Shown piece by piece: positions 16,696 to 30,112 of a stretch of 64,000 bases of DNA (within the stretch, counting starts at the first letter, position 1; every line of letters starts with the position of its first letter). The notes under the pieces are model-generated. The model saw only the letters and a program-made list of their open reading frames with translations, searched no databases and was not told the DNA's origin. Where the stretch lies: positions 714-64,713 of the forward strand of contig CAVXGQ010000002.1 of NCBI GenBank assembly GCA_963761425.1. The letters are read 5' to 3'. Position numbers and translations under genes: made by a program. This stretch comes from an uncultured Acidimicrobiaceae bacterium. Lineage in GTDB: Bacteria; Actinomycetota; Acidimicrobiia; Acidimicrobiales; Bog-793.

Positions 16696-16881
16696 GGGGA
16701 AGTCACAGTTCAGCGGCCGAGTATTTCCTGTCGGCAACCTGCACCGAATCGGCGGTCAGGGGCACATGACAGCGGTAAGGCGATTGATATTCGGGGATAC
16801 CCGGAACGACTTGGCTCGATTGGCATTCAGGGATAGCAGCCTGATGCCGTCGATTGAATCTCGGCGCTCCTCGTCAAGCGC

Positions 16882-17274
16882 CTAGCGAGTAGCTGTCGGC
16901 TGGCGGACGGATTCGGCACCTTTGTCCTTGGGCGGGCGAACGATGACCAGGGCCATTCCGGCCAACGTCATTGAGGCAAAGACTGGAACCGCGAAGGGCG
17001 CGAGTCGGGCTCCGAACCACAGCTCGAACATCGGGACGTCGTCTCCGGTTCGTCGCTGGAAGATCCCAAGTGGACATCCTTTGGCGGCGATTAGCGCGAG
17101 TCCCTCGCCGACGAGAACGACTTCTGCCAGCCGGAGCCACGCGTCACGTCTCCGAACGAGCGCGCAGAACCACAAGTAACCCAAACACCCCAGCTCACCG
17201 ACGCCGATTGCATTGTGTACGAGTCGGAGCAGCCGGGCACCACCGCTGAGCGCTGGCCCATCGCGACGTCTCAC
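16882..17274 (-). CDS. hypothetical small membrane protein
   Basis: 130-aa ORF with 3-4 hydrophobic helices (LGCLGYLWFCALV, VVLVGEGLALIAA, FAVPVFASMTLAGMALVIV). No family was recognised. Confidence 0.5.
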   Translation of the reverse strand: MRRRDGPALSGGARLLRLVHNAIGVGELGCLGYLWFCALVRRRDAWLRLAEVVLVGEGLALIAAKGCPLGIFQRRTGDDVPMFELWFGARLAPFAVPVFASMTLAGMALVIVRPPKDKGAESVRQPTATR

Positions 17275-17417
17275 CGATCGAAATCATGACACCGGGTCCT
17301 CGGAAGCTCCCCGATGCCTGCACTGGACGCCGCGACGGAAACAGCTGGTTATGAACGGCGTTCTGTGACAGTCCGCGATCCGTCACTAGTGTCCAGGTCG
17401 CCCATGAGAGAGCGCAC

Positions 17418-17609
17418 TTGACCGTCACGAAGTTGAACCGGCAATGGCACGAGCAACACCGCTTGGGAACGGCCGCGAGCCTTGACGATCGTGTGCGGTG
17501 GCACCTCGAACACGCCAAAGTCTGTGCGTGTCGACCGATCCCGCCTCGCGTGCTCGACGAGATCAAACGACGCAGGGAACTGCCTAGCCAAGGCTCAGCA
17601 AAGTCATAG
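17418..17609 (+). CDS. small conserved hypothetical protein (Cys-x-Cys)
   Basis: The 63-aa sequence LNRQWHEQHRLGTAASLDDRVRWHLEHAKVCACRPIPPRVLDEIKRR resembles a widespread small protein family of the form ..WH..H.MP.N.tl..Ri.WH.eHa..C.CR.iP.. This is recalled from memory, not searched. It uses a TTG start. Confidence 0.55.
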   Translation: MTVTKLNRQWHEQHRLGTAASLDDRVRWHLEHAKVCACRPIPPRVLDEIKRRRELPSQGSAKS

Positions 17610-17686
17610 CCCGCGTCCGGCGATCTGGGGCGGATCAATCTGCGATGAGAGTCTTGGCAATCGGAGAAGGTCCCGAAGGAGGACGC

Positions 17687-18109
17687 ATGATCCAGGTTTC
17701 GATCATCAAGAGGACCTTGAGACAGGGCAAGACCTACGACGATTTCCGCCACGCCTGGTACCACTCGGTTGGCTTCGGCACGGCCAACAAGATGCTCACC
17801 ATGCTCAACGTTGCCAATCCCCGCGAGATCATCGTCATCGGGCTGACAGAGACGACCTTGGAACAGGCGGGTGCGCTGATTGCCCTAGACGCCAACGAAC
17901 GTGGCGAACATCCCCTCGACGACGTCATCGAGCCGCAGATCGATCGAACTTTCGGGATCCTCGTATCGGAGGACGATTTTTCGGAGCCGGGAGAGATCGA
18001 ATACAAGCCGGCCACTGTCAACGGCGAGGTCACCGACATGGCAGAGGCTGAAGCAGCATTACAAGCTGGCGCCCGCCTCCTCGCCGCCTATCTTCGCAAG
18101 AGCGTTTAG
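17687..18109 (+). CDS. hypothetical protein
   Basis: ORF 17645..18109. The likely start is MIQVSIIKRTL at 17687, preceded by GAAGGAGG. No family was recognised. Confidence 0.55.
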   Translation: MIQVSIIKRTLRQGKTYDDFRHAWYHSVGFGTANKMLTMLNVANPREIIVIGLTETTLEQAGALIALDANERGEHPLDDVIEPQIDRTFGILVSEDDFSEPGEIEYKPATVNGEVTDMAEAEAALQAGARLLAAYLRKSV

Positions 18110-18191
18110 GGCGCGTATCTATGGGGATCGGGCCGCAATGCACACCCGGCGGTCAGGGGCGCCTCTGGTACGCCTTGAGTAGGGTGACGGC

Positions 18192-19076
18192 ATGGCGGAG
18201 ATCACTCGTCGACGTTCGGGCGAACTTGTGCGCGGCGTGCTTCAAGTCCTCGCTGAGCATCCTGACGGTCTCCAGGCACGTGATGTTCTGACCGAACTTG
18301 AGCAGCGAGTTTCGCCTACGCCGTTTGAGCAGAGCTTCTACCCGAATCGACCTGGTGTTCGGCGGTACGAAAAAATCATCCGCTTTATGACGATCAATGC
18401 CGTGAAGGCCGGGTGGCTCACCAAGAGCAAAGGAACCTGGTCGGTTACGCCTGACGGTCTGGTGGCACTCGACGCGTTTCCTGACCCTGAGAAGTTCATG
18501 CTGGAGTCGGTTCGCCTCTACCGAGCGTGGAAGAAGGAACAGCCCGAAGTCGACAGCCAGGACATCGAAGAAACCGTAGAGACGCCTTCGAGCACGCTGG
18601 AGGAAGCCGAGGAGTCGGCTTGGCAGGAGGTATCGGGGTTTCTAGCGGACATGAATCCCTATGAGTTCCAAGAAATGGTCGCGGCGCTCCTGCGCGCGAT
18701 GGGCTACTACACGGCGTGGGTGTCTCCACCCGGCCCAGATCGGGGGCTTGACATCCTTGCGTTCAACGACCCGCTGGGGGCGGCTGGGCCGCGGATCAAG
18801 GTTCAGGTCAAGCGTCGAGCTGACAAGATCAACGTCGATGGTGTCCGCGCGTTCATGGCTCTCCTCGGTAGTCAGGATGTGGGAATCTTCATCTCTGCAG
18901 GCGGGTTTACGTCGGAAGCGGAGCGGGAGGTCCGGAGCCAGGAGAATCGTCGCATCTCTCTCATTGACCTTGAACGACTATTCGATCTGTGGGTCGAGCA
19001 CTACGACGCAATCCCCGAGGACGGACGACAACTACTTCCGCTGAAGGCCGTGTATTTCCTCGCTCCCCGAGACTGA
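18192..19076 (+). CDS. mrr: Mrr-type (type IV) restriction endonuclease with N-terminal winged-helix domain
   Basis: The N-terminal domain is Mrr_N-like (ELVRGVLQVLAEHPDGLQARDVL..). The C-terminal part is an Mrr catalytic core (PYEFQEMVAALLRAMGY..GPDRGLDILA..IKVQVKRR..VGIFISAGGFTSEA). Confidence 0.85.
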   Translation: MAEITRRRSGELVRGVLQVLAEHPDGLQARDVLTELEQRVSPTPFEQSFYPNRPGVRRYEKIIRFMTINAVKAGWLTKSKGTWSVTPDGLVALDAFPDPEKFMLESVRLYRAWKKEQPEVDSQDIEETVETPSSTLEEAEESAWQEVSGFLADMNPYEFQEMVAALLRAMGYYTAWVSPPGPDRGLDILAFNDPLGAAGPRIKVQVKRRADKINVDGVRAFMALLGSQDVGIFISAGGFTSEAEREVRSQENRRISLIDLERLFDLWVEHYDAIPEDGRQLLPLKAVYFLAPRD

Positions 19077-19099
19077 ACGATCCGGCGATTAGGGGCACC

Positions 19100-19125: not shown

Positions 19126-19178
19126 CTGGGGCACGGCCGACGGTGAGCAATTGACGGAGGCGGGGGCCGCGGCACAGC

Positions 19179-20384
19179 GTGTCGGTGGCCAATGGCAAGA
19201 TTCCGCTAGTGGGTGCGATCTTCGTTTCGGCTGTCGTATTGCTCCTCGGACTCGCTTTGCCGACGCGAGCGCCCGGACTCGTCAACAACGGCGCCAAGGT
19301 TCACTCGGCTCGTCAATCGCTCGCTCCTGCTTGCTGGTCAGGATCGCTTCTGCTCACCGTGACTCCCAGCGAAGTGCATCCGGGTGAAGTCGTGAGCCTT
19401 TCACCGAACGTCGGCAATACCCGCCTTCTCATCGGGGGCACGGTCACAGAATTCGAATCGAGATCGCTCGGCCAATGGATCCTCGCCGACTACCTGACTT
19501 CTCCGTACGGGACCGCGACGAATTATGGCGTCGTCTCGGCAAGGGGATCCGCGGGATTCCTCGGCGTCGGCACCTACGCGCCGATCGAGGTCCGCATCCC
19601 TGACGTCCGCAGCGGCACCTATCGTCTGGCCAGTTACTTCAGCCCTGCCGGCGGCAACGGCTCCTTCCTCCCGGGCCACTACCCCAACAAGGGCGCCTAC
19701 CTCTGCAGCGAGGTCCAGGTCTTGTCGACGAGGCCGACGCTCTCGGCCTCGAACGACGTCTCCGTGCAAGCCATCCCGTCTTCGGGCTTGCGGGACGGCA
19801 AGCACATCCGAGTCAATGTGTCAGGCTTCGGCGTACGAGGGGTCGTCTCTCTTTCTGAGTGCGCGTTCTTTGGGGTTGTCGCCACATCGGGCTGTGGCAC
19901 GGCGCTCAATTCCGATTCCTTGATCCATGTCAACAAGAACGGGACGGCGTCCGTGACCTACGTTGCCGCTGGCCGCGCGCTTTCGTCTTCTCGTGGTCGG
20001 ACGTTTCCATGCACGGCGACGAACTGCGTGCTCGTCGCGACGCTCGGATCTGGCTTCGCGTACGCGGTCACCCGACTCAGTTTTCGCGTACCAGGTGCTG
20101 CAACGGGCTACCTGCACTTCGTCGGTGGTCCCGCCCCCGGGCTGGACAAACCGATTCCAGGGACCGTCCGATTCCAAGCCAGCTCCGGCGCTTCCTATGA
20201 GACAAGCCCGGCATCGGACGGCGAATTCTCGCTCATCCTCCCACCCGGTCGGTACCTAGTAGAGGCGAGGAGTCCAAACTTTATTTCGGTTGGCACAGAA
20301 TGGCCGTGCAGAGGCCAACCCGATTCATTAGTGGTGAAGCCGGGTCAAACGATTGATGAGCCCGTCTTCTGCGATGCGCCGTAG
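19179..20384 (+). CDS. secreted/anchored hypothetical protein (Ig-like/carboxypeptidase-regulatory-like C-terminus)
   Basis: 401-aa ORF with an N-terminal signal/anchor (IPLVGAIFVSAVVLLLGLALP). The body is beta-rich and Cys-paired. The C-terminal stretch GRYLVEARSPNF..VVKPGQT is reminiscent of CarboxypepD_reg-like domains. Confidence 0.6.
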   Translation: MSVANGKIPLVGAIFVSAVVLLLGLALPTRAPGLVNNGAKVHSARQSLAPACWSGSLLLTVTPSEVHPGEVVSLSPNVGNTRLLIGGTVTEFESRSLGQWILADYLTSPYGTATNYGVVSARGSAGFLGVGTYAPIEVRIPDVRSGTYRLASYFSPAGGNGSFLPGHYPNKGAYLCSEVQVLSTRPTLSASNDVSVQAIPSSGLRDGKHIRVNVSGFGVRGVVSLSECAFFGVVATSGCGTALNSDSLIHVNKNGTASVTYVAAGRALSSSRGRTFPCTATNCVLVATLGSGFAYAVTRLSFRVPGAATGYLHFVGGPAPGLDKPIPGTVRFQASSGASYETSPASDGEFSLILPPGRYLVEARSPNFISVGTEWPCRGQPDSLVVKPGQTIDEPVFCDAP

Positions 20385-20438
20385 CGAAACCGTCGCGGGC
20401 ATGTCGGTCGATCCGGCGTTGTGGGGCAGTCTGTTCAG

Positions 20439-21068
20439 ATGAACCCGGTAGAGGCAGCTAACCCTTTTGACCCCGAGGCCGTACTTTCCTCGTATTCCGA
20501 GGGAGTCTGCGCGATCGAACGAGCCGCTGCCGTGACCGTGGACTGGGAGGCTCCGACCCCCTGTGGCGAATGGCGGGTCGTAGAACTCGTTGGCCATCTC
20601 CTTGCCATTGTCCGTTACTACCATCGCCTTCTCGACGCTGCCTCTGCAGGCAGGCCGCTGATCGAATTGCCCCGAGGCGGGCGACTCGCGGCGATGAATG
20701 CCGACGACCTCTCCGGTCTTTCCGAAACTGAAGGCGCGGAGCGCAGCCGCCGGTTTGTTCATGAAGCAAGAGGCTACGCAGCGCGCCTCCGCGACATCGA
20801 CTGGAGCCTGACCCTCGGAGTTTGGTCGGGTCTCGGTCCTCTTTCTGTCGGTGAGCACACAGGGGTGGTTCTCGGAGAATGGCACGTGCATGCCTGGGAT
20901 CTCGCCCGGTCGGCGGGCATCGACCACCGCCCTAGCGATGCCGAGATGATTGCGAATGGACAACAAGCCGTGCTTCGGGCCGTCGGCCCCGGCGACCCAT
21001 GGATCGCCGTGCTGCGCGGTTACGGCCGCGATCCCGACTGGTCACGTCCCCCGGGCGGGACTGCATGA
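20439..21068 (+). CDS. DinB-like / mycothiol-dependent maleylpyruvate-isomerase N-terminal domain family protein
   Basis: PTPCGEWRVVELVGHLL and the later HVHAWDL motif are typical of the actinobacterial TIGR03083/MDMPI_N family. The track start at 20421 is a GTG inside the intergenic motif, so ATG 20439 is preferred. Confidence 0.75.
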   Translation: MNPVEAANPFDPEAVLSSYSEGVCAIERAAAVTVDWEAPTPCGEWRVVELVGHLLAIVRYYHRLLDAASAGRPLIELPRGGRLAAMNADDLSGLSETEGAERSRRFVHEARGYAARLRDIDWSLTLGVWSGLGPLSVGEHTGVVLGEWHVHAWDLARSAGIDHRPSDAEMIANGQQAVLRAVGPGDPWIAVLRGYGRDPDWSRPPGGTA

Positions 21069-21132
21069 AGCACGCCATTTGGATCCAGCCGGCGTTCGGG
21101 GGCACTCCATCGCCAGGCGCGAGAATGTGCGA

Positions 21133-21597
21133 ATGGCAAATCCGAGCTACTCAGAGTCGATCGTGATCGCCCGCCCAGCAGAGCTGCTCTACGACATGGT
21201 CTCCGACGTCACTCGAATGGGCGAATGGAGTCCGGTTTGCAAAGCCTGCTGGTGGGACGAAGGTGACGGCCCACGAGTAGGTGGGCGGTTCACCGGTCGC
21301 AACGAGACTTCCGCGCGGACGTGGGAGACGCGCTCCGAAGTCGTGGCGGCAGATCGGGGTCGAGAGTTCGCCTTTGTCGTTGGTGATTCGTGGGTTCGTT
21401 GGGGCTACACGTTCACCCCGGTTGAAGGTGGGACGAGGGTGACTGAGTCTTGGGAGTTCCTCCCGGCTGGCATCGCACGATTCGAGGAGCGATTCGGTGA
21501 TGACGCTCTCGTCCAGATTGCTGATCGAACCGAGGCTGCCCATCAGGGGATCCCAGCGACCCTTTTAGCGATCAAGAGGGCTGCAGAATCGGAGTGA
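21133..21597 (+). CDS. SRPBCC-family (polyketide cyclase/dehydrase-like) protein
   Basis: The sequence SIVIARPAELLYDMVSDVTRMGEWSPVC..RFTGRNE..WETRSEVV..FAFVVG..VRWGYTF is typical of SRPBCC proteins. It is the internal Met of ORF 20950..21597. Confidence 0.75.
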   Translation: MANPSYSESIVIARPAELLYDMVSDVTRMGEWSPVCKACWWDEGDGPRVGGRFTGRNETSARTWETRSEVVAADRGREFAFVVGDSWVRWGYTFTPVEGGTRVTESWEFLPAGIARFEERFGDDALVQIADRTEAAHQGIPATLLAIKRAAESE

Positions 21598-21735
21598 ACC
21601 CAATTGGATGGGGAAACGAAGGGTCGACGGGTACCTCTGACCTACCCGGCGATCAGGGGTACCCGGAGACGCCCTGGCCGAGGTTCCTCGGAGCGTTGGG
21701 CTCCGTTAGATGAAGGCGCCCACTGGACACAGCAA

Positions 21736-22662
21736 CTACTTCACGGCGCCGATCACACCTCCGCCAATGGCGGCAATCAGGATTCCGGTCAGGGCAATCC
21801 GCGCTGCTCGAGAGCCTGGCTCAGGCATTTTGAAAACCCAGATCCCAATGCTGGCATTAACGAGCAGGCTTAGCTGGGCGATGGTGAAGCCCACTCCAGT
21901 GCCCACTCGCGAGACCAAGCCAAGCAGAGCGAGATTGCCGACGCCGAATAGAAGCCCAGCCGCCAACTCCAAGGTTGTCACCCTGAGACTCAATCTGAAT
22001 GGTTTGCGGGCAGGCAGCGCGAGAAGGAACCCGCCAGTGAGGATGCCGAGCGAGAGGGGAAAGTTGGCCACCTGCGTCGGCACCTTTGCCCACTGAGCTG
22101 GCACGAAATAGCTACCCCACAGCAATCCTGCCGCAACGGCCCAGAGCAGGCCGCGTTGATATGTGTTGCTGGCCTTTGAAGTCAACGCCGGCGGTCCTAC
22201 CAACGTGACGACAGACGGGGAGATGCCAGCAGCATCTTGCGAACGCACAATGAGCAGTACCCCGACAAGGATGAACACGAGCGCCAGCGCTACCACTGTG
22301 AAGCGGGTGGAGCTGAAGCTCTTCAATTCGCCAAAAAGAAGGGCGCCCCACACGAACGCGGTGATGATGTTCAGTGGCGTCCAGGACCCAGCGGCACGGG
22401 CCAGTCCGATTGCTTCGGTGGCCCGAAAGGCGGAATAGTTTCCGACCGTCCACACCAAGCCCCCGGCCAAAGGCAGCCAGAACTCGCGCCAGCCGAAAGA
22501 GAGATGACCACCGCTGGAGACGAGCGCAATCGTTGCGAAAGCGAAGTTGCCAACGGTCACGTAGAAAGTCCGCAAGCGTTGGGGCACACCGCGTGCGACC
22601 TGAGCCATCGGTATCCAGGTGCCCCACGCCACCACCGTGATGAGTGCGAGGAGCGCGGTCAT
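21736..22662 (-). CDS. GRP/DMT-superfamily sugar transporter (GlcU/RbsU-like)
   Basis: About 308 aa with roughly 10 TM helices, beginning MTALLALITVVAWGTWIPMAQ. The family assignment rests on overall pattern only. Confidence 0.6.
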   Translation of the reverse strand: MTALLALITVVAWGTWIPMAQVARGVPQRLRTFYVTVGNFAFATIALVSSGGHLSFGWREFWLPLAGGLVWTVGNYSAFRATEAIGLARAAGSWTPLNIITAFVWGALLFGELKSFSSTRFTVVALALVFILVGVLLIVRSQDAAGISPSVVTLVGPPALTSKASNTYQRGLLWAVAAGLLWGSYFVPAQWAKVPTQVANFPLSLGILTGGFLLALPARKPFRLSLRVTTLELAAGLLFGVGNLALLGLVSRVGTGVGFTIAQLSLLVNASIGIWVFKMPEPGSRAARIALTGILIAAIGGGVIGAVK

Positions 22663-23009
22663 GTGCGTCTCGTTGTGCGTTCGGTCAGCTTCGAGCTTCG
22701 AAGCCAGACGGTAGGTGCGCGTTAAAGCCCACGATGATCCATTCAATAGCCGGTGTTTCGTCCGTCATCGGGCTCCAGGCTACATTTCGCCGCCCGATTG
22801 CTTGACGGCTTTACAACGCTAGTCAACGATCTCTGGCCCCTAAAGAGTGGGGTGTCGCCTCAGGGCCGCTCGGCGGAATAGCCGGCGTTATGGGGCACCC
22901 CGTCGTACCGAACTGGTCGGCTGCGACGTGAACCTATTTTGCTCAGTCCACCCATGTGGCTGAGTGCCGTCGCTGGACAAATCGTTCGGTACCTAGCATT
23001 ATTCATTAG

Positions 23010-23471: not shown

Positions 23472-24283
23472 CGATCTTGCTCACCGGTGGTACCGGCCGC
23501 GTGGGGTCGCGGCTTATACCGCACCTTGTGGATGCGGGAGTGGAGTGTCGCGCGCTAGTGCGGGTTGGCAAAGGCGTCCCCAACGGGGTTACGCCGGTGG
23601 AGGGGGACATCCTCGATCCGGAGTCATTGTCGCGCGCAGTGGAAGGCGTCTCGGCGATCGTCCATTTCGCTGCGCTGCTGGGCACGCCCGACTCCGACGC
23701 GATCTGGAAGGTCAACCTCGAGGGCACACGCAATCTCATCGCCGCCGCACAGCTACACGCACCTGAGGCACGTTTCGTGATGGCGAGCACCGGGCTGGTC
23801 TACGACGAGGATGCCGTGCATCCGGCCTTGGAGGATGACCCGGCGACTCCGACCACCGCCTACCCCGCGAGCAAGCTTGCAGCCGAACACGAACTCCGAG
23901 ACAGCGGACTGACGTGGAGTGTTCTCCGCCTTGGGTTTGTCTACGGCGACGGGGACGGACACCTTGCATTGGCCCCTCAGCTCTTGTCGGCCTGGAAGTG
24001 GCACCCAGCCCAGACCCTGAGTCTGATCCATCAGCGCGACGTCGCAACCGCGGTCGAACTTGCATTGACGGGAGCCATGGACGGGCACATCGTAAACATC
24101 GTCGATGAAGCACCGACCACCATCTACGAGATTGCCAGCCTCGTCGGCGCCGCTTGTGAAGAGTCGGGCGATCCCCTTCCCAACCCGTGGAAGGGCCACG
24201 CGGATGGGTCCCTCGCTCGCCGCCTTGGCTTCCAGCCGACAGTGCCGACCGTGTACCAGGCCATCCGAGAAGGCGCACTGTGA
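23468..24283 (+). CDS. NAD(P)-dependent epimerase/dehydratase-family (atypical SDR) protein
   Basis: It has the Rossmann motif ILLTGGTGRVGSRLIPHLV and YPASKLAAE (the YxxxK catalytic pair). Confidence 0.85.
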   Translation: MTILLTGGTGRVGSRLIPHLVDAGVECRALVRVGKGVPNGVTPVEGDILDPESLSRAVEGVSAIVHFAALLGTPDSDAIWKVNLEGTRNLIAAAQLHAPEARFVMASTGLVYDEDAVHPALEDDPATPTTAYPASKLAAEHELRDSGLTWSVLRLGFVYGDGDGHLALAPQLLSAWKWHPAQTLSLIHQRDVATAVELALTGAMDGHIVNIVDEAPTTIYEIASLVGAACEESGDPLPNPWKGHADGSLARRLGFQPTVPTVYQAIREGAL

Positions 24284-24489
24284 AGCTCGGCCGGACCTCG
24301 GATCTGCTGACATTTCGGTCTAGCCCGAAAGTGCCGAATGGTGGCGCACTCCCGGCGATAAGGGACACCCACGACCGAGGCGGTTGAGTCGCGATTATGA
24401 GACGGTCTTGGATCCCCGACGCCGTTCCCGTCGAGCGAACGCAATCGACGTCCGGACGGTGCGCATTTACGACAAGGTAGGCTACTTGC

Positions 24490-25095
24490 ATGTCGACGTG
24501 GGGTTCCAGCGAACCTTCCGATCGTGCTGACCGCGCGGCAGAGACGAACCCTACGAAGCAGTTTCACCGCAGGGACAGAAGGCTCGCCATCGCATTCGTG
24601 CTTGCCGCACCCGTAGTCTTGATCGCGGCCGCGGCCACGGCCACGGCCGCATCAACCGATCACCGCGCCAAGGTCACCGCGTCGTTCGCCTCACCGGCGC
24701 AGTACAGAACGCACCCCGCAGTCACCTACGACCGGCAAAGCGTGCCCACGGGCAGTCAGGTGGAGGTGATGGAGCGGCCCAACGACAAAGGCGGGCTGGT
24801 CGTCACGCTCAGGGTCTGGGGGCTTGACCCGTACAGAAGGTACGACGCGTACGTGTACACCAAAAGATGCGGCGCCACACCCGCCGCCGCGGGCAGACGA
24901 ACGCAGAACGGGCCGAGCAAGGAGCACTATCCGCAGAACGAGGTCTGGCTCAACTTCAAGACCAACCGCCGTGGCGACGCCAGCTCTCAAGTATGGCAGT
25001 ACTGGGCGTTCAACCCCGGCCAAGCAAACTCCGTGGTGATCCAGTCGCGTGCCACCGGGGGGCGCGTGGCATGCGTCTCGGTGCCGTTCAACTAA
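24490..25095 (+). CDS. secreted hypothetical protein
   Basis: 201-aa ORF with a signal-like segment (LAIAFVLAAPVVLIAAAATATAAS) and a beta-rich body. There is a weak resemblance to Cu/Zn-SOD-like folds without the metal-ligand histidines. Confidence 0.5.
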   Translation: MSTWGSSEPSDRADRAAETNPTKQFHRRDRRLAIAFVLAAPVVLIAAAATATAASTDHRAKVTASFASPAQYRTHPAVTYDRQSVPTGSQVEVMERPNDKGGLVVTLRVWGLDPYRRYDAYVYTKRCGATPAAAGRRTQNGPSKEHYPQNEVWLNFKTNRRGDASSQVWQYWAFNPGQANSVVIQSRATGGRVACVSVPFN

Positions 25096-25426
25096 CGCGA
25101 TTCCTCGTCGTTCTGAATTGCGATCGTAAGCCCATAACGCTCGTTGATTCGATCAACAACTGCTCGGCAGAAGTGCCGTACTGCCGCACCTACCCGGCGA
25201 TCAGCCTCGCGCTCGACGCGCCAGTCGGCGAACATTATGGGACGCGACCTGCACTCCATATCCGTCTCGCTATGGCGCGATGTTGAGCTGATCTGAGCCC
25301 AAATTCTGGCTGTACATAAAGAACTTTCTTGTACGGGGTGAACACGCGAGGACCGTGTTGACGATGGTCGCAGCCCGCCGCCGGACCTGCGTGGGCGAGA
25401 GCCGCCACTCGAGCGCGGCGGAGCTT

Positions 25427-26665
25427 TTAGCCCGTCGACGCCCGGTACGGGCGGAAGAACGCGCGGAGCTCCTCCGCGTATAGCTCGGGCTCTTCGAACG
25501 GCGCGAAGTGCCCACCGCGCTCGGGCTCGGTCACGCGCACGACGTTCGCCGTGCGCTCGAGCCACGCCCGCGGCGGGCGGACGATGTCGCCGGGAAAGAG
25601 AGAGAAGCCGGATGGCACCTCGACCCGGCGGGCGAGCTGCGCGGGCGGGATAGCGGCGTTGGCGCGGTACATGCGCATCGACGAGCCGATCGTGCCCGTG
25701 AGCCAGTAGAGCGTGACGTTCGTGAGGATCTCGTCCTTTGTGAAGCGCCTCTCGACGTCCCCGTCACAGTCGCTCCACGCCCGAAGCTTCTCGACGATCC
25801 ACGCCGCGAGCCCGGCCGGCGAGTCGGTGAGGCCGACGGCGGCGGTCTGTGGCTTCGTGCGGTGCATGGCAGCGTAGGCGCCCTCGGTCGCGCCCCAGGC
25901 TGCGGCGCCCTCGAGCCAGGCGCGCTCCTCGGGCTTGAGGTCGGCTGGGTCGCCGGTAAAGACGGGCAGGCCCGCGTCGGTGCGGTGGACGGCCACGACC
26001 CGGTCGGGGTGGTCGAGCGCGAGATAGCGGCTCACGTGGCTGCCGATGTCCCCGCCAGCCGCACCGAAGCGAGCGTAGCCGAGGACGCCCATGAGCTCGG
26101 CCCACAGGCGAGCGACAGCGATCGAGTCGAGGGCCGGGCCGACGGGGCGGTCGGAGTACCCGTAGCCCGGCATGTCTGGCACGACCACGTCAAAAGCGTC
26201 GGCGGGGTCGGCGCCGTGGGCGCCGGGGTCGGAAAGTAGCGGGATGACCTTGATGTAGCGCCAGAACGAGTCCGGCCAGCCGTGGCTGAGGACCAACGGA
26301 AGGACGGGCCCAGCCGGAGCGGCCGCCCGGGCGTGCAGGAAGTGGATCCCGAGGCCACCGAGGCGAACGTGCAAGTGGGGCAGCTGGGCGAGCGCCATTT
26401 CCTGTGCCGGCCAGTCGAAGCCGTCTGCCCAGTAGGCGACGAGCTCGCGTAGATAGGCGAGGTCGGTCCCGAGCGACCACCCAGCCTCCTCGGGCGTGTC
26501 CGGCCAACGAGTCGCGCGCAGCCGCGCGTGGAGATCCTCGAGCACCGCCGGGGCGGTCTGTGGGGTAAACGGCTCTAGGTGGGGCGGGGCGTCCGGCACG
26601 AGACGCACCTTACCGGCCGCCGCCCTCGCGTCGGCTGTCGAACCTAGCGGGAGCGCCGCGGCCAT
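25427..26665 (-). CDS. epoxide hydrolase (microsomal EH-like alpha/beta hydrolase with EHN domain)
   Basis: The N-terminal EHN pattern is present (PFTPQTAPAVLEDLHARLRATRWPD..GWSLGTDLAYLRELVAYW..FDWPAQE). It is followed by IHFLHARA..PLVLSHGWPDSFW and the nucleophile region GGDIGS. Confidence 0.88.
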   Translation of the reverse strand: MAAALPLGSTADARAAAGKVRLVPDAPPHLEPFTPQTAPAVLEDLHARLRATRWPDTPEEAGWSLGTDLAYLRELVAYWADGFDWPAQEMALAQLPHLHVRLGGLGIHFLHARAAAPAGPVLPLVLSHGWPDSFWRYIKVIPLLSDPGAHGADPADAFDVVVPDMPGYGYSDRPVGPALDSIAVARLWAELMGVLGYARFGAAGGDIGSHVSRYLALDHPDRVVAVHRTDAGLPVFTGDPADLKPEERAWLEGAAAWGATEGAYAAMHRTKPQTAAVGLTDSPAGLAAWIVEKLRAWSDCDGDVERRFTKDEILTNVTLYWLTGTIGSSMRMYRANAAIPPAQLARRVEVPSGFSLFPGDIVRPPRAWLERTANVVRVTEPERGGHFAPFEEPELYAEELRAFFRPYRASTG

Positions 26666-27020
26666 AGCACCAAAGGTCGGGTCGTCTTTTCGGGCCCGTC
26701 ACAGCTTGTCGGAGCGACGACCGTTTTATGTGCGGTGGTTCTGGCGCGGGTTCAGGTCGGGATTTGCGGGCTTTGCAACACCAATATCCGTCGTTCGGCA
26801 CCGCAGCCCCGGCTCGGAGGCGCGCCGAATCAGCGATTTGCATCCGCGGAACTGTCCCAGAACGCAGCCGACAGGGTGCCTCGGGGTCGCCCGAAAGTGC
26901 CGGTAGGGGACGGTCGCCAAGGTGCCCACCACGTGCCCCGCTGGAGCAGGCGTTCGGGGGCACCCGCAGAATGTTCGACAGCAGGACTGGTGCGCACCCC
27001 ACGCGCGTTGCTAGGTAGGC

Positions 27021-27743
27021 TTACTCAACGAAGTAGAGAAGGACGTGGTGCCTGCGATCGAGAAACAGAAACTCGCCTTGGAGCGCGGGTCCTGAACGTG
27101 GCCCGGTCACGAACATCCACGAGTCACGGGCTAAGCGCTCTCCGCATCTTGTTGCAATGAGGTGTGTGAGATCGGGAGGCCCTTCAGAAGAGCGATAGGA
27201 CTCCAGCCGTCCGTTGAAGATTATCGTGATTGTTTGCTTCGATGAGTGGACGAAAATTGGAGTTCCAATTCGCCAGCCGTGAGCGATGACAGGCCAAAGC
27301 GTTCGATCGGTCAGCCGCAAATCATTGGTGAAGCTGCGCCCGAGGTTTCGAAGCAGACGACGTGCGTCTTCAACGTCTCGAGCCCGAAATGGCTGCACTC
27401 CTTCCACGGATGGACAGTGTCCAATGAGGTTCACCACGGGACGCGGGCTCGGCGCAGGATAGATGGCCGAAGGAAAACCCGGAGCTCCGACAGGGGGAAT
27501 CGGATACCTCTGGTGTCGGGCAACTGAAGTCATCGGCGACTTCCCTTTGCTCCCAGCTCCGGCCCCGGGAGCTGCGTCCGCGCGCCACGTAAATGCTCCC
27601 GAACTCACTTCGCCGATCAATGCAACCACGAGAACACCCTGCGTCAGAAGAGCCCACCGCCGAGGCGCAGTTCGTTGGCCGTCACCTGCACCGGGTGGCG
27701 CGATCTGGTCGTGGTCCGATTGATGGAACTTGCATCGGTGCAT
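27021..27743 (-). CDS. hypothetical membrane-anchored/secreted protein
   Basis: 240-aa ORF with one N-terminal hydrophobic helix (WALLTQGVLVVALIGEV). No family was recognised. Confidence 0.45.
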   Translation of the reverse strand: MHRCKFHQSDHDQIAPPGAGDGQRTAPRRWALLTQGVLVVALIGEVSSGAFTWRADAAPGAGAGSKGKSPMTSVARHQRYPIPPVGAPGFPSAIYPAPSPRPVVNLIGHCPSVEGVQPFRARDVEDARRLLRNLGRSFTNDLRLTDRTLWPVIAHGWRIGTPIFVHSSKQTITIIFNGRLESYRSSEGPPDLTHLIATRCGERLARDSWMFVTGPRSGPALQGEFLFLDRRHHVLLYFVE

Positions 27744-28049
27744 GTCGCTCTTCGTTCCGTCGGTTGGGGAATCTACTTCTCGCCCAACTATCTGTCGGTG
27801 ACGTCCTAGTCTCGGGCTTACAACCGCTTAGGAGCCGACTACCTCCGACCACCACTGCCGATCCGACCGCCCTGCGATCACGGGCGCGACATGGAGTGCG
27901 AAGCCGCAGAGCGGGACGCGGCGACGAAATGGCGCGAATGTGCAGGTTCCGGGCTTCGATGTCCCGCTGTTCAAAGTTGCCTCGCCCGATTCATGACAAG
28001 AATTAGCCGAAAAAGCCTCCCTGAGCGGGACCGCGTGAGGCATTCAACG

Positions 28050-28120
28050 AGTGTTCCGATGGCCGAGAGCTTTCTTGGCACGCTCCAGCTCGAGCTCCTC
28101 GACCGCAAGCGCTGGCGGCC
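28050..28120 (+). pseudogene. IS3-family transposase (OrfB) C-terminal fragment
   Basis: MAESFLGTLQLELLDRKRW (within ORF 27891..28406) matches the conserved ..AESFFgtLK.ELl.rrrw motif near the C-terminus of IS3 OrfB. No other transposase sequence lies around it. Confidence 0.55.
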
Positions 28121-28224
28121 CGATCGGGTTCCGCCCACCTGTAGCGACCAGGAGCCCTGCGGACCGCCCGAGGTGATGCCGATCGAGACGAGCACGGGTA
28201 GACCGGCCGGGCGGGCGGCAGCTT

Positions 28225-29172
28225 CTATCGCACATGCACCACGCCTCGGGCTTGCGGCATGCAGCACACCAAAAGACCCCAGAACACTTCGGCCGACCCC
28301 GCCGACGCACTGTCCGGGATCGCCATCTCCATGTCGTAGGTCACCTCTCCATGCGCCGGGATGGCGTGCACACTCCGGCAGTTCAGTTCGTACTCCAGCT
28401 TGGTAGGGATGTACGAGTGCTCGATGTAGCCGGGGCACGGCGACAACGGGACAGCGCGGCTTCCGGGATTGAACAGCTCAACCTGGTACCTGAGGATGGT
28501 GCCCGGTTTCACCGCGGCGGGGAGCCGCAGGCGGGAAACGAGGTGCACGAGCGGGTCCGGCGGATAAACGGGCGGCGGTTTCCCCGTGAAGAACGGCGTC
28601 ACCCCCATTCCGCACGCCATGGTCACGGAGCGCACGGCGATCAACTTGCTTCCACCCCCAGGGAAACTGATCAACAGGTGGTTGTAGCCAGGAAGTCCCT
28701 GGTTCCCGCCGCCGGGATCGGCGGCACAGATGACCGGAATATCGATCCAGACGCTCACAAGCTTGCCCGGGTCGGTGTTGGCAATCTCGCTGTCTGGTGC
28801 CATGCCCTCCGGCCTCGCCGTCACCGTCGGTTTGCCGGGCTTACTCGCCACCACGTGCGGCCTTCCCCGAAGGAGACACGCCGTCCGACCCGTGTTGCGA
28901 AGCGCCACGCTGAAGCCAACATCCTGGGTGATCTGTAGCGGGTCCACCGATGCCACGACCAATTGCGAGGCGGCGCAGGGAGGTGCATTGGCAAGGGGCG
29001 GTTTCGTCGGCAAAGGCTTCACCAGAAGGGATTCCATGAACGCTCGAGTCACCGGCTTGTCTAGCCAGGGCACCGCCCTGGCCTGAACTGAAGCACTCGA
29101 ACAGGCGGCAAGCAAGACCGCAGCGGTGGCGATCACCGCGGCACCGCAGCAGTAGCTGCGCCACCTCTTCAT
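28225..29172 (-). CDS. lipoprotein, DUF4232-like
   Basis: The internal start MKRWRSYCCGAAVIATAAVLLAACSS is a lipobox. CAASQLVV..VGFSVALRNTGRTACLLRGRPHV matches the DUF4232 pattern (recalled from memory). Confidence 0.65.
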   Translation of the reverse strand: MKRWRSYCCGAAVIATAAVLLAACSSASVQARAVPWLDKPVTRAFMESLLVKPLPTKPPLANAPPCAASQLVVASVDPLQITQDVGFSVALRNTGRTACLLRGRPHVVASKPGKPTVTARPEGMAPDSEIANTDPGKLVSVWIDIPVICAADPGGGNQGLPGYNHLLISFPGGGSKLIAVRSVTMACGMGVTPFFTGKPPPVYPPDPLVHLVSRLRLPAAVKPGTILRYQVELFNPGSRAVPLSPCPGYIEHSYIPTKLEYELNCRSVHAIPAHGEVTYDMEMAIPDSASAGSAEVFWGLLVCCMPQARGVVHVR

Positions 29173-29359
29173 GTCAAAAGGACGCCGGTCGCCACCGACG
29201 CCTTGCGTCGCTCGCCGGCTCGCCCGAGAGACGGTGATCTCGGGGCCACAACCGACACGCCTTGCCACCTTCTCGTCCCTCCGCTAAACGGAATCGCCTC
29301 TAATCCCTATCGTATGGACGGCTTTTTCTGTGTGCAGGTCACCATTCGGCGCGTCGTGA

Positions 29360-29588
29360 CGCCGCCCTCGCCCTGCGCCCCCCTGCTGGCTGGCTGGGGT
29401 CGTCTCGTCTTCCCGCCGTCCGTGCGCTCCGGGCGCTCGCCCTTGCCGGTGCCCGGCCGGTTTCGTGTTGCCCCCCTCGGTCGGCCTGCTCGCCCCTCGC
29501 TCCCTTGTCCGTCACTCCTGCCCCGGTGCGCCGGTCGTCCCCTTCCCGTCTTTGGCTCGCCTTCCCGCGCCTGTCCTTCTTTTCCCCG
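29360..29588 (+). other. 229-nt tract with a single A on the + strand (C/T/G only)
   Basis: Counted directly: there is no A in 29360-29513 or in 29515-29588, and the only A is at 29514. All six frames are therefore stop-free, which explains the long P/R/G-rich ORFs called across it. Confidence 0.9.
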
Positions 29589-29622
29589 AATGCAAAGTTG
29601 GCGGCGAGGCACCCAGACAACC

Positions 29623-29796
29623 TTCGTGTGTAGCCATTTGTGTAGCCAAGCGCTCAGACCCGACTGGACGCGGACAGACGTCAGAGGACACAAGCACCTG
29701 GTCAGATTCTCTCGGTGGACTCTGATGGACACCCGGATACCGGTTCGATTTCTCTGGGGGTCAAGAGGCCCCGGGTTCAAATCCCGGCAGCCCGAC
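29623..29796 (+). repeat. copy 2 of the ~173-bp repeat ending in the 3' half of tRNA-Pro(GGG) (att-like)
   Basis: 29754-29796 is identical to 16653-16695. The upstream ~130 nt is about 85 percent identical to copy 1. It contains the tandem GTGTAGCCA-N3-GTGTAGCCA and several GGAC(A) repeats. Similarity ends exactly at the tRNA 3' end. Confidence 0.75.
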
Positions 29797-29849
29797 AAGA
29801 AATAGCAGGCCAGAGCCGTAGCGGTAGTCGAGTAACTGCTTCTTGGCAG

Positions 29850-29972
29850 GTCTCGCGAGCCAATTCGCGAGCCGACTCGTCGATCCGGATAACTGCGGAC
29901 GTCTATGGCTACACCCTCGATCCGCAGCGCCAACAGGCGGCCGAAGCGATGGCAGAAGCACTCTGGTCGTAG
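29850..29972 (+). pseudogene. tyrosine recombinase (phage-type integrase) C-terminal stump
   Basis: ..SRADSSIRITADVYGYTLDPQRQQAAEAMAEALWS* matches the catalytic-Tyr region of integrases (..GHssi.iTld.YgH......aa..m..). Nothing upstream is integrase-like. Confidence 0.6.
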
Positions 29973-30112
29973 CCTGAACCGTTCGTGCGTGACCGCGAAC
30001 CGGCGGTCAGGGGTGCACGCGCCACCTTCTCTCAGCCCCAAGGTGCTGAAGAGCGGCACACTCCCGGCATTCCTGGGCGCCCTTGATCAGGGGAGGGCCA
30101 TAGGCTTGCCCC

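What the first reader, a model, noticed from the sequence alone, without database searches (positions are those of the whole stretch)
16749..30016. Cassette-array-like architecture: a co-oriented 17-nt motif (CCGGCG-N4-GGGG-NAC) follows almost every gene unit across 13 kb
Read directly, perfect CCGGCG-N4-GGGG copies start at 17617, 18146, 19082, 20413, 21089, 21646, 22882 and 30000. One-mismatch copies start at 16749, 24352 and 26947. Degenerate copies start at 17355 and 25194, and the latter shares CTACCCGGCGATCAG with the 21646 copy. The next three bases are mostly CAC. All 13 copies are on the + strand and all are intergenic. Six consecutive + strand ORFs (17418, 17687, 18192, 19179, 20439, 21133) each have a copy 5-48 nt after the stop and 9-80 nt before the next start. 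The motif stays in + orientation where the enclosed gene is on the minus strand (16882-17274, 21736-22662, 25427-26665). The motif-delimited units measure 0.26-1.7 kb, apart from the ~3-kb last unit (26947-30000). They carry functionally unrelated genes: a small membrane protein, a Cys-x-Cys miniprotein, Mrr, a secreted protein, DinB/MDMPI, SRPBCC, a GRP transporter, MarR+SDR and an epoxide hydrolase. A 10-position G/C-only pattern should occur less than once per strand in 14 kb at this composition (rough estimate). By eye I found no perfect copy in intergenic DNA outside 16.7-30.1 kb. Compact ORF-plus-site units in one orientation recall integron cassette arrays or CALINs. Several things do not fit that model. 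The site is short, I could not find an attC-like imperfect palindrome, and there is no IntI. The only recombinase trace is a stump at 29850-29972 that is oriented the wrong way for a classical integron. To my knowledge canonical integrons are rare or absent in Actinobacteria. The array is bracketed by the two tRNA-Pro-half repeats. The copies nearest those repeats (16749, 30000) share the subtype CGAAYCGGCGGTCAGGGG.
Basis: partly seen in the sequence, partly recalled or inferred. Interest (0 to 1): 0.8.

Follow-up and report, generated by a model that had tools for sequence, protein, structure and literature searches.

The report
Integron-like gene cassette array in Acidimicrobiales
A short one-way DNA motif that follows almost every gene in this 13-kb island marks the joints of mobile single-gene cassettes, which suggests that peat actinobacteria, a group thought to lack integrons, have their own integron-like gene-capture system.

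Summary
CCGGCG-N4-GGGG(CAC) occurs 8 times perfectly and 3 times with one mismatch, always on the + strand and always between genes, within 16.7-30.1 kb. About 1.2 copies are expected in the whole window.

Comparison with other contigs shows that the motif marks cassette boundaries. Three units recur at 87-95% identity in unrelated contexts: the 140-aa protein, Mrr, and a GRP transporter that lies antisense to the motif. In every case homology starts and stops inside a motif copy.

The two bracketing 169-nt repeats are attR-type junctions of elements that integrate into tRNA-Pro(GGG). A stump of a tyrosine integrase ends 27 nt before the motif at 30000. In four related contigs with a longer or full-length integrase gene, homology breaks exactly after CCGGC(G/A), which makes this an attI-like site. 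One of them, L154, carries integrase, five motif-bounded cassettes (Mrr included) and then an excisionase-like gene.

The integrase is a generic phage-type enzyme, not IntI. The sites are short and have no attC-like palindrome.

Best reading: a non-canonical, integron-like cassette system carried in the cargo slot of ICE-like elements of peat Acidimicrobiales. Which recombinase acts on the sites is inferred, not shown.

The parts
16527..16695 (+). attR-type junction 1. It consists of a P-arm with two TGTAGCCA repeats plus the 3' part of tRNA-Pro(GGG), from the anticodon loop CTGGGGG to the acceptor end.
   Evidence: 169-nt direct repeat, 92% identical to 29628-29796. The 3' end matches tRNA-Pro genes. 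It is not an intact tRNA.
16696..16738 (+). Fragment of the P' arm, the sequence that follows tRNA-Pro and precedes int in intact relatives. The integrase gene that should follow has been deleted.
   Evidence: blastn: window 16653-16738 matches L151 7241-7326 at 84%. The sequence downstream of the L151 tRNA is shown.
16749..16765 (+). First cassette site, TCGGCGGTCAGGGGCAC. It is the same subtype as the site that follows the integrase stump, so it is likely an attI-derived site.
   Evidence: 26.9 bits
16882..17274 (-). Cassette gene: 130-aa protein with no Pfam match, antisense to the sites.
17355..17371 (+). Doubtful degenerate site, ACGGCGTTCTGTGACAG.
   Evidence: PWM 10.2 bits
17418..17609 (+). 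Cassette gene: 63-aa miniprotein.
17617..17633 (+). Cassette site. It is the left border of the 140-aa-protein cassette.
   Evidence: Homology to L012-L014 starts exactly here.
17687..18109 (+). Cassette gene: 140-aa hypothetical protein.
   Evidence: Homologues at 93-97% identity sit in other contexts.
18146..18162 (+). Cassette site. It is the right border of the 140-aa cassette and the left border of the Mrr cassette.
   Evidence: Homology to L012 ends at 18162. Homology to L154 starts at 18144.
18192..19076 (+). Cassette gene: Mrr-type restriction endonuclease.
   Evidence: Pfam Mrr_cat/Mrr_N. The same cassette lies in the L154 array.
19082..19098 (+). Cassette site. It is the right border of the Mrr cassette.
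   Evidence: Homology to L154 ends at 19094.
19179..20384 (+). Cassette gene: 401-aa protein with weak neocarzinostatin-like and CarboxypepD_reg matches.
20413..20429 (+). Cassette site.
20439..21068 (+). Cassette gene: DinB/MDMPI_N.
21089..21105 (+). Cassette site.
21133..21597 (+). Cassette gene: SRPBCC/polyketide-cyclase-like.
21646..21662 (+). Cassette site. It is the left border of the GRP-transporter cassette.
   Evidence: Homology to L229, L235 and L238 starts at 21639-21647.
21736..22662 (-). Cassette gene: GRP-family sugar transporter, antisense to the sites.
   Evidence: Pfam Sugar_transport. Homologues at 86.8-94% nucleotide identity keep the same site-gene-site unit in three other contexts.
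22882..22898 (+). Cassette site. It is the right border of the GRP cassette.
   Evidence: Homology ends at 22887-22903.
23010..24283 (+). Two-gene unit: MarR regulator (23010-23471) and NAD-dependent epimerase/SDR (23468-24283).
24352..24368 (+). Cassette site with one mismatch (GGGA). It is preceded by the shared ~40-nt left-arm module AGCCCGAAAGTGCCG...GCAC.
24490..25095 (+). Cassette gene: 201-aa hypothetical protein.
25194..25207 (+). Left half-site: CCGGCG-ATCA is present but the GGGG half is missing.
   Evidence: Window 25171-25204 is 97% identical to the left arm of the L235 site. PWM 7.1 bits.
25427..26665 (-). Cassette gene: epoxide hydrolase, antisense to the sites.
   Evidence: Pfam EHN + Abhydrolase_1
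26947..26963 (+). Cassette site with one mismatch (CAGGCG).
26964..29627 (.). Last unit or backbone remnant. It holds the - strand ORFs 27021-27743 and 28225-29268 (DUF4232). No excisionase-like gene or T4SS coupling-protein gene was found here.
   Evidence: blastn found no match to the L154/L151 backbone.
29628..29796 (+). attR-type junction 2: P-arm plus the 3' part of tRNA-Pro(GGG).
29875..29972 (+). C-terminal stump of a tyrosine integrase, ending ...SSIRITADVYGYTLDPQRQQAAEAMAEALWS*.
   Evidence: Translation. Protein homologues P0121-P0124. 88-95% nucleotide identity to the int genes of L151, L152, L154 and L158.
30000..30016 (+). Integrase-proximal (attI-like) site, 27 nt after the integrase stop.
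   Evidence: Homology to four int-bearing contigs ends at 30004-30014, right after CCGGC(G/A).
30064..30077 (+). Degenerate site, CCGGCATTCCTGGG, with the shared left-arm module.

Best explanation
The motif is the core of a site-specific recombination site that delimits mobile gene cassettes.

Each unit runs from the 4-nt spacer and GGGG(CAC) of one site, through one gene (sometimes two, in either orientation), to the CCGGCG of the next site. Strand exchange takes place at or just after CCGGCG. Because all sites point the same way, recombination between two sites excises a unit as a circle. The circle can then re-enter at another site.

Entry is preferentially at the site 27-28 nt downstream of the integrase gene (attI-like), and occasionally at secondary sites elsewhere in the chromosome.

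The array occupies the cargo slot between int and an excisionase-like gene of an ICE/IME-like element that itself integrates into tRNA-Pro(GGG).

In this window two such elements lie in tandem and both integrases have decayed: one is deleted and one is a stump. The 13-site array is therefore a fossil or trans-dependent array, comparable to a CALIN.

Shown: the motif's statistics; its co-orientation and intergenic position; cassette borders at the motif; the integrase-proximal break point; and the element backbone.

Inferred: that exchange is catalysed by a tyrosine recombinase; that this is the linked integrase; that circular intermediates exist; and the exact cleavage positions.
For: (1) The motif is enriched and strand-pure: 8 perfect + copies in 13.4 kb against 1.18 expected per window on both strands. 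No other PWM hit in the window exceeds 13.3 bits.

(2) Seven independent homology break points fall inside motif copies.
- Window 17617-18162 matches L012-14.
- Window 18144-19094 matches L154.
- Window 21639/21640/21647 to 22903/22890/22887 matches L229, L235-237 and L238-239.
- Window 29875-30004/30014 matches L151, L152, L154 and L158.
Sites plus 8 nt of tolerance cover about 3% of the island, so chance coincidence is negligible.

(3) The GRP cassette keeps its gene antisense to the sites in four contexts, one of them between purL and crgA. This excludes a promoter or terminator role tied to gene direction.

(4) L154 shows the platform most completely. Its int gene is cut at the 5' end by the contig edge. 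After it come the CCGGCA junction 28 nt past the stop, sites at 2261, 3197, 4221 and 5276 with one ORF per unit (Mrr included), and then an HTH_17 excisionase-like gene on the opposite strand.

(5) Independent arrays lie downstream of related integrases next to tRNA-Val (L195/L196) and in L187.

(6) Across 80 integrase loci, PWM hits of at least 12 bits number 9 on the integrase strand and 0 on the other. At 9 bits or more the counts are 18 downstream/+ against 5-7 in each of the three control compartments.

(7) CCGGCG, where the breaks fall, is the invariant part of the site, as expected if partner sites must match in the exchange region. The spacer travels with the downstream unit at 5 of 6 informative borders.
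Against: No recombinase is intact next to the window's array, and no experiment or read-level evidence for circles or empty sites was available.

Most loci with this integrase family lack arrays. Only 3 distinct arrays were seen among 34 loci with at least 3 kb downstream. L151 and L158 share the integrase-proximal junction but have cargo without further sites.

Cassettes also occur far from any integrase (L229, L235, L238).

The site shows no dyad symmetry of the kind typical of tyrosine-recombinase core sites. It has no significant similarity to the tRNA attB cores.

One border is inconsistent: the left side of Mrr has spacer GTCA in the window and ATCT in L154.

The same motif serves arrays next to tRNA-Pro- and tRNA-Val-type integrases, so site specificity is not obviously tied to one enzyme.

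L240 carries several + copies, two of them flanking a 5.7-kb unit that includes a pst operon, so units may not always be small.

Only the 64-kb window, not the whole genome, could be scanned.
Confidence: 0.75

Rival explanations
1. The sites are recombination sites, but the linked tRNA-targeting integrase only moves the whole element. On this view another, unlinked recombinase shuffles the cassettes. It could be a host Xer-type enzyme or another tyrosine or serine recombinase encoded elsewhere in the genome.
For: Cassettes flanked by sites occur tens of kilobases from any integrase and between core genes. Most members of the integrase family have no array. The site does not resemble the tRNA attB cores. 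The same motif is found with integrases that target different tRNAs.
Against: A site lies at a fixed 27-28 nt after the integrase stop in five loci, and homology breaks there. Hits are biased to the integrase strand and to the downstream side. No other gene is shared between arrays. The site has no 11-6-11 dif-like architecture, as the sequence itself shows.
Confidence: 0.2
2. The motif is a regulatory or structural intergenic element, such as an operator, a promoter or terminator part, or a REP-like repeat. On this view the cassette-like mosaic arises because homologous or illegitimate recombination tends to occur at these short repeats, as proposed for boundary sequences in mosaic phage genomes.
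For: The motif is always intergenic, close to stops and starts. A subset of sites has a small hairpin just upstream, GTGCCG...CGGCAC. L240 shows + copies around ordinary-looking operons.
Against: Motif orientation ignores gene orientation, and this is conserved for the antisense GRP cassette in four contexts. There are no copies in ~50 kb of flanking window. There is no consistent secondary structure (fold z-scores near 0; permutation p = 0.16). Ten conserved bases are too few for RecA-type recombination. Break points are confined to a few nucleotides at CCGGCG. The motif also sits directly after an integrase gene.
Confidence: 0.04
3. It is a canonical integron remnant (CALIN) whose attC sites are merely very divergent.
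For: It is a co-oriented array of mostly single-ORF units with unrelated functions, next to a decayed tyrosine recombinase.
Against: The integrase family scores 42 bits against a 265-bit cut-off for TIGR02249 and 31 against 435 for PRK15417. There is no R''-L''/L'-R' palindrome. The conserved core is CCGGCG-N4-GGGG, not GTTRRRY. The integrase is co-oriented with the array and upstream of it, with the junction after its stop codon.
Confidence: 0.01

Closest known systems
Integrons (mobile and sedentary chromosomal integrons; CALINs)
   Same: A co-oriented array of mostly single-gene, functionally unrelated cassettes, each bounded by a recombination site. A tyrosine recombinase gene sits at the head of the array, with a dedicated proximal site where homology breaks. 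The same cassette is found in different arrays and at secondary chromosomal sites. Arrays without an integrase also exist. The exchange point lies at a fixed position in a short conserved core, CCGGCG|N, comparable to G|TT in the integron core site.
   Different: The integrase is a generic phage/ICE-type enzyme (Phage_integrase + SAM_3) far below IntI cut-offs. The sites have a ~17-20-nt conserved core with no attC-like imperfect palindrome. The integrase is co-oriented with the array, and the proximal site follows its stop codon rather than lying upstream of a divergent intI with a Pc promoter. The platform is the cargo slot of a tRNA-integrating element. About a third of the genes are antisense. 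The host phylum is one in which complete integrons have not been found (PMC4889954; PMC13323075).
tRNA-integrating ICEs/IMEs of actinobacteria (pSAM2-type AICEs that integrate into tRNA-Pro; from my own knowledge)
   Same: The order tRNA, then int, then an HTH_17 excisionase-like gene and a TraG/TraD-type coupling protein. attR junctions duplicate the tRNA 3' part. Arm-type repeats (TGTAGCCA) are present. Elements occur in tandem.
   Different: Known elements carry cargo as ordinary variable regions. To my knowledge, an internal array of site-delimited, individually mobile cassettes between int and xis has not been described.
pdif modules (XerC/XerD-dependent modules on Acinetobacter plasmids; from my own knowledge)
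   Same: Short recombination sites flank small gene modules that recur in different contexts, without a dedicated linked recombinase in many cases.
   Different: pdif sites are 28-nt 11-6-11 dyads and flank modules in alternating orientation. Here the sites are asymmetric, strictly co-oriented, and linked to a phage-type integrase.
Tycheposons of Prochlorococcus (from my own knowledge)
   Same: Tyrosine-recombinase elements at tRNA genes build islands with partial tRNA repeats and carry niche-adaptive cargo.
   Different: In tycheposons the repeated unit is the whole element bounded by tRNA fragments. Here the repeated site is a non-tRNA 17-nt motif inside one element, and it bounds single genes.

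Membership tests
Integron | IntI-type integrase (integron-integrase models TIGR02249 / PRK15417; IntI-specific extra domain) | tested here: not met
   The full-length relatives L151 int and L196 int score 41.9 and 37.1 bits against a 265-bit cut-off, and 30.8 and 46.9 bits against 435. Their best Pfam matches are the generic Phage_integrase and Phage_int_SAM_3.
Integron | attC sites: 57-141-nt imperfect palindromes (R''-L''...L'-R') with the core GTTRRRY | tested here: not met
   ssDNA folds of 13 sites give z-scores from -1.9 to +0.9 with no common structure. Complementarity between the right arm and the 70 nt upstream is no better than for permuted pairs (p = 0.16, 23 sites). The conserved core is CCGGCG-N4-GGGG-CAC.
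Integron | attI next to the 5' end of a divergently transcribed intI, with the Pc promoter | tested here: not met
   The proximal junction lies 27-28 nt after the integrase stop codon, and the array is co-oriented with int.
Integron | Co-oriented array of cassettes that are individually mobile, with borders at the recombination sites | tested here: met
   Three cassettes recur in other contexts with homology ending in the sites. All 11 strong sites are on the + strand.
Integron | Match to the IntegronFinder attC covariance model | not testable with these tools
   The model is not available here. The Rfam gathering-threshold scan of the window returned only tRNA-Gly.
CALIN (cluster of attC sites lacking an integrase) | At least two bona fide attC sites without a nearby intI | tested here: not met
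   The window's array does lack a working integrase, but the sites are not attC. It is a CALIN analogue, not a member.
tRNA-integrating ICE/IME | Tyrosine integrase next to a tRNA gene, att repeats that duplicate the tRNA 3' part, and excisionase and transfer genes | tested here: met
   Relatives L151 and L158 have int followed by cargo, an HTH_17 region and TraG/T4CP, and L151 also shows tRNA-Pro(GGG) directly upstream of int. L154 shows int, cargo and an HTH_17 gene. The window keeps two attR-type junctions, a P'-arm fragment and an integrase stump, but no intact int, xis or T4CP.
pdif / Xer modules | 28-nt dif-like sites (11-6-11 dyad), inverted relative to each other around each module | tested here: not met
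   The aligned sites show no dyad and are all co-oriented.
REP/BIME-type extragenic repeats | Palindromic units scattered genome-wide in both orientations | tested here: inconclusive
   The sites are not palindromic. They are single-stranded in orientation and absent from the other ~50 kb of the window. However, the rest of the genome could not be scanned.

The most novel reading that the evidence does not exclude
Actinomycetota, at least the peat Acidimicrobiales, have independently evolved a gene-capture system that works like an integron but shares none of its parts. On this reading an ordinary tRNA-targeting ICE integrase recombines short, non-palindromic, double-strand sites (CCGGCG | N4-GGGG-CAC). 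This stacks single-gene cassettes between int and xis, moves them between elements, and seeds them into core-genome intergenic regions.
Probability: 0.5. Interest if true: 0.9.

Novelty: new variant of a known kind. Interest (0 to 1): 0.85.

Why it matters
Integrons are the model for modular gene capture, and complete integrons have not been found in Actinobacteria (PMC4889954). In thawing-permafrost peat their 'virtual absence' in the abundant Actinomycetota was singled out as an anomaly (PMC13323075).

A cassette system built from a generic integrase and a 17-nt site would fill that gap. It would also show that cassette arrays can evolve more than once.

It would be invisible to IntegronFinder-type searches, so cassette-borne gene flow in soils may be underestimated. 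That flow here includes defence genes such as Mrr and HEPN proteins, as well as transporters and detoxification enzymes.

The site is short and the candidate enzyme is a single protein. The hypothesis can therefore be tested directly with two-site substrates, and a working system could be useful for engineering high-GC Gram-positive bacteria.

Tried and rejected
(1) Scanning public collections with the short motif. I dropped this approach and used protein- and att-based retrieval instead.

(2) attC-like folding. There is no common hairpin and no excess complementarity. Only a few sites (21646, 22882, 26947) pair GGGGCAC with an upstream GTGCCCC.

(3) The idea that the site mimics the tRNA attB core. 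By eye, CTGGGGG-TCAAGAGG of tRNA-Pro and GCAAGGGGTCAC of tRNA-Val resemble it. PWM scores on the tRNA genes are below 3 bits and not above random. I rejected this as evidence and kept it only as a lead.

(4) The other integrase in the window, 36080-37342 next to tRNA-Gly. Its C-terminus is unrelated to the stump. It belongs to a separate island.

(5) More distant homologues of the 140-aa cassette protein (77-81% identity, L001-L011) and of the GRP transporter (80%, L240). These carry no flanking sites, and their homology is limited to the coding region. An apparent motif variant in L006/L007 (CCGGCGTTGTCGGCGGGCAC) looks like the reverse strand of a coding sequence, judged by eye and not checked with a tool.

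(6) De novo search for gapped k-mers in all loci. The output was too noisy to use.

(7) tmRNA or another RNA identity for the 169-nt repeat. Rfam gave nothing significant.

(8) Literature searches for a described equivalent. None was found.

Full report
**1. Observation.**

The pattern CCGGCG-N4-GGGG occurs 9 times in the window. Shuffles give 1.18 +/- 1.02, with a maximum of 4. The ninth, at 29521 on the - strand, overlaps long open reading frames on both strands and is probably chance.

With one mismatch, the additional copies at 16749, 24352 and 26947 stand out. They are the only ones that also carry the conserved T at spacer position 2 and the CAC tail.

A weight matrix built from the 11 strong sites scores them 20-29 bits. 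Nothing else in the 64 kb exceeds 13.3 bits.

The degenerate copies score less:
- 17355 scores 10.2 bits and is doubtful.
- 25194 scores 7.1 bits and is a left half-site.

All sites are intergenic, and the reported distances to stops and starts hold. The consensus is (C)CCGGCG-D-T-N-N-GGGG-CAC(C).

**2. What brackets the array.**

The two 'tRNA-Pro halves' are the ends of 169-nt direct repeats at 16527-16695 and 29628-29796, 92% identical. Neither is an intact tRNA.

Their last ~45 nt match a tRNA-Pro(GGG) gene from its anticodon loop (CTGGGGG-TCAAGAGG...) to the acceptor end. The final 32 nt match tRNA-Pro genes of several MAGs exactly.

Upstream of that tRNA part, each repeat carries two TGTAGCCA repeats. 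In relatives with an intact locus (L145, L151), the order is tRNA-Pro(GGG), about 80 nt, two TGTAGCCA repeats, then a tyrosine integrase. The window's repeats are therefore attR-type junctions: P-arm plus core plus the displaced tRNA 3' end.

After junction 1 come 43 nt of P' arm (84% identical to L151). Then the integrase is missing and the first motif copy (16749) follows.

After junction 2 comes a C-terminal integrase stump at 29875-29972, on the + strand, ending ...SSIRITADVYGYTLDPQRQQAAEAMAEALWS*. Twenty-seven nucleotides later comes the motif at 30000.

The locus is therefore two tandem elements that target tRNA-Pro, each with a decayed integrase followed by a site. The 13-kb array is the cargo of the first element.

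A second integrase at 36080-37342, next to tRNA-Gly, is unrelated and belongs to another island.

**3. The motif marks cassette borders.**

*(i) The unit 17617-18146 (140-aa protein).* It recurs at 94% identity in the Logan contigs L012-L014. Homology starts at the first base of the motif and ends 3 nt after the next one. The flanks are unrelated, and downstream there is a Peptidase_A4 gene on the other strand.

*(ii) The Mrr unit 18146-19082.* It recurs at 92% identity in L154, with the same 936-nt site-to-site spacing. Homology runs from 18144 to 19094, and the neighbours on both sides are unrelated.

*(iii) The GRP-transporter unit 21646-22882.* Its gene is antisense to the motif. It recurs, at 86.8-94% nucleotide identity, in three further contexts:
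- L229, on the same 157-kb contig as L151 but 130 kb away from its tRNA-Pro/int;
- L235-L237, between the core genes purL and crgA in other Acidimicrobiales MAGs;
- L238/L239, in yet another neighbourhood.

In all of these the gene stays antisense to the sites. Homology begins at the left site and ends at, or a few nucleotides past, the CCGGCG of the right site.

Together with the integrase-proximal junction described below, this makes seven distinct break points, each within a few nucleotides of a site. Sites plus tolerance cover about 3% of the island.

More distant homologues (77-81% identity) share only the coding sequence and have no flanking sites.

**4. Link to an integrase.**

A metagenome scan with the catalytic domain of the L145 integrase returned 80 loci, largely from peat and bog metagenomes.

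The four whose integrases are closest to the stump are L151, L152, L154 and L158. They share with the window the last 98 nt of the gene and the 3' flank CCTGGACCGTTCGTGCGTGACCGCGAA-CCGGC(G/A). The sequences then split into four unrelated continuations, with L151 and L154 sharing about 70 nt more before they too diverge. This is the signature of an attI-like insertion point.

L154 shows the platform most completely, although its int gene is cut at the 5' end by the contig edge. The order is int, this junction, then five units of one ORF each (four sense, one antisense; the second is Mrr). The units are separated by sites at 2261, 3197, 4221 and 5276. An HTH_17 excisionase-like gene follows on the opposite strand.

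In L151 and L158 the conserved backbone continues past the HTH_17 region with a TraG/TraD-type coupling protein. In many relatives the sequence right after the int stop looks, by eye, like the reverse strand of such an HTH_17 gene. I did not verify this with a tool. If it holds, the array occupies the gap between int and xis.

Independent arrays with the same motif lie downstream of 60-70%-related integrases. One is next to tRNA-Val(GAC) in L195/L196, with sites at 9203, 9884, 11130, 11543, 12172 and 12442. Another is in L187.

Over all 80 loci, hits of at least 12 bits number 9 on the integrase strand and 0 on the other. At 9 bits or more the downstream/+ compartment holds 18 hits, against 5-7 in each control compartment.

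Arrays are a minority, however: 3 distinct arrays among 34 loci with at least 3 kb downstream.

**5. Anatomy of the site.**

Break points cluster at the CCGGCG | spacer boundary. Everything up to CCGGCG stays with the upstream unit. The spacer, GGGG and CAC stay with the downstream unit at 5 of 6 informative borders.

The exception is the left border of Mrr, where the spacer is GTCA in the window and ATCT in L154.

CCGGCG is invariant. This fits a requirement for identity in the exchange region.

There is no attC-like structure:
- Folds of 13 sites show no common hairpin, with z-scores between -1.9 and +0.9.
- The right arm is no more complementary to its own upstream 70 nt than to that of other sites (p = 0.16).

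About a quarter of the sites share a longer left arm, AGCCCGAA(A/G)GTGCCG-N5-7-GCCGCAC-CTAC-CCGGCG, with a small GTGCCG/CGGCAC hairpin. This arm is conserved across different cassettes and genomes. Its role is unknown.

A visual resemblance of the site to the anticodon-arm region of the target tRNAs is not supported statistically.

**6. Mechanism and rivals.**

The best explanation (0.75) is site-specific recombination at co-oriented sites. Two sites recombine to excise a unit as a circle. The circle integrates at the integrase-proximal site, at other sites, or at secondary chromosomal sites.

The linked integrase is the most economical candidate enzyme, for three reasons: the site sits at a fixed position after its stop codon, the hits are biased to its strand, and no other gene is shared between arrays. 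This step is inferred. I give it roughly even odds against an unlinked recombinase (rival 1, 0.2 overall).

A regulatory or REP-like element with recombination occurring at it by accident (0.04) is contradicted on four counts:
- its orientation is independent of gene orientation;
- it is locally confined;
- it lacks structure;
- the break points are precise to a few nucleotides.

A divergent canonical integron (0.01) fails every molecular criterion that could be tested.

In the window itself both integrases are dead, so the array is either frozen or serviced in trans.

**7. Comparison with known systems.**

It works like an integron: a platform with a recombinase, a proximal site, a co-oriented array of individually mobile cassettes with unrelated functions, insertions at secondary sites, and arrays lacking an integrase.

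It is not a member of the integron family:
- the IntI models are missed by a wide margin;
- there is no attC palindrome;
- the gene order and orientation are opposite to intI-attI.

The carrier is a tRNA-integrating, ICE/IME-like element. The system also differs from pdif modules, which have dyad sites in alternating orientation. It differs from tycheposons, where whole elements are bounded by tRNA fragments.

Literature searches found no description of such a system.

Cury et al. report that all Actinobacteria genomes lacked complete integrons (PMC4889954). [quoted passage not shown]

**8. Verdict and limits.**

The system appears to be an undescribed, non-canonical cassette system, so I rate it a new variant of a known kind and of high interest.

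Limits:
- there is no whole-genome scan;
- there is no read-level or experimental evidence for excision;
- the recombinase is not identified;
- arrays are rare among carriers of the integrase;
- one border has an inconsistent spacer;
- at least one contig (L240) suggests that units can be operon-sized.

The source organism is inferred to be an uncultured Acidimicrobiales bacterium. The basis is the names given to 90-94% identical proteins and the origin of the related contigs.

Noticed in passing
window 32000-37442: A separate integrative island. tRNA-Gly(GCC) lies at 37369-37442 (-), directly followed by a tyrosine integrase at 36080-37342 (-). A low-GC stretch (0.57 at 32-34 kb) encodes an ApeA-like HEPN protein at 32637-34052 (-), a probable defence gene. 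The attachment-site repeat at its far end was not looked for.
   Followed up: partly
window 13633-14691 (-): A DDE transposase (rve_3 with HTH_32) lies just left of the first attR-type junction, followed by GntR (14838-15233) and an NHL-repeat protein (15242-16267). It may explain why no intact tRNA-Pro lies left of the tandem elements.
   Followed up: no
L144 3107-3155 (Acidimicrobiales MAG DASPSK010000232.1): A tRNA-Pro 3' fragment is directly abutted by a motif-like sequence, CCGGCGACTGGGG|TCAAGAGGCC.... The left half of the cassette site thus sits where the P-arm core half-site of an attR would be. This could link the cassette site to the attP core of some elements, or it could be coincidence.
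   Followed up: partly
window 24322-24356, 25165-25199, 26888-26946, 30034-30068; L196 11500-11548; L235 11046-11132: A 35-45-nt module, AGCCCGAA(A/G)GTGCCG...GCCGCAC-CTAC, with a small GTGCCG/CGGCAC hairpin, precedes CCGGCG at about a quarter of the sites. It is conserved between different cassettes and genomes. It could be an accessory arm of the site or a terminator; its role is unexplained.
   Followed up: partly
L240 330, 6074, 13312, 14045 (ENA ERZ25039587 contig_79453): Several + strand motif copies occur in another Acidimicrobiales-like contig. One pair flanks a 5.7-kb unit with a response regulator and a pst phosphate-transport operon. The 80%-identical GRP gene there has no sites and is flanked by IS110 and rve transposases. 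Units may therefore be operon-sized, or the motif may be more widespread than the window suggests.
   Followed up: partly
L235-L237 9700-11260: A single GRP-transporter cassette with both sites sits between the core genes purL and crgA in other Acidimicrobiales MAGs (for example GCA_003162815.1). This looks like a secondary-site insertion, analogous to integron attG events. The empty allele was not available.
   Followed up: partly
window 29521-29534 (-): The only perfect motif copy on the opposite strand, CCGGCGCACCGGGG. It lacks the conserved T and CAC and overlaps long ORFs, so it is probably chance.
   Followed up: partly
proteins P0016, P0021, P0079, P0102 (homologues of window 17687-18109): Homologues of the 140-aa cassette protein are named 'ROK family protein' or 'NBD/HSP70 family sugar kinase' in several public records. 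They are only ~140-170 aa long and have no Pfam domain, so the name looks like an annotation error that has spread.
   Followed up: no
L151 8640-15026; L145 9180-10150: The int-xis cargo slot of L151 holds an IS110 transposase and a DnaJ-Mrr_cat fusion protein but no further motif sites. L145 has an integrase pseudogene with an internal deletion next to an intact tRNA-Pro(GGG). Database homologues of the stump are themselves 38-76-aa fragments, so decay of this integrase seems common.
   Followed up: partly
L187 1266-1368; L194-L196 and L160, same region: In the tRNA-Val integrase clade the conserved 3' flank ends in a long hairpin, GTTGTCAAGGCCGGCC...GCCTTGACAA. Homology between L187 and L194-196 breaks right after it, not at a CCGGCG motif. 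The proximal junction of this clade may therefore be a different site.
   Followed up: no
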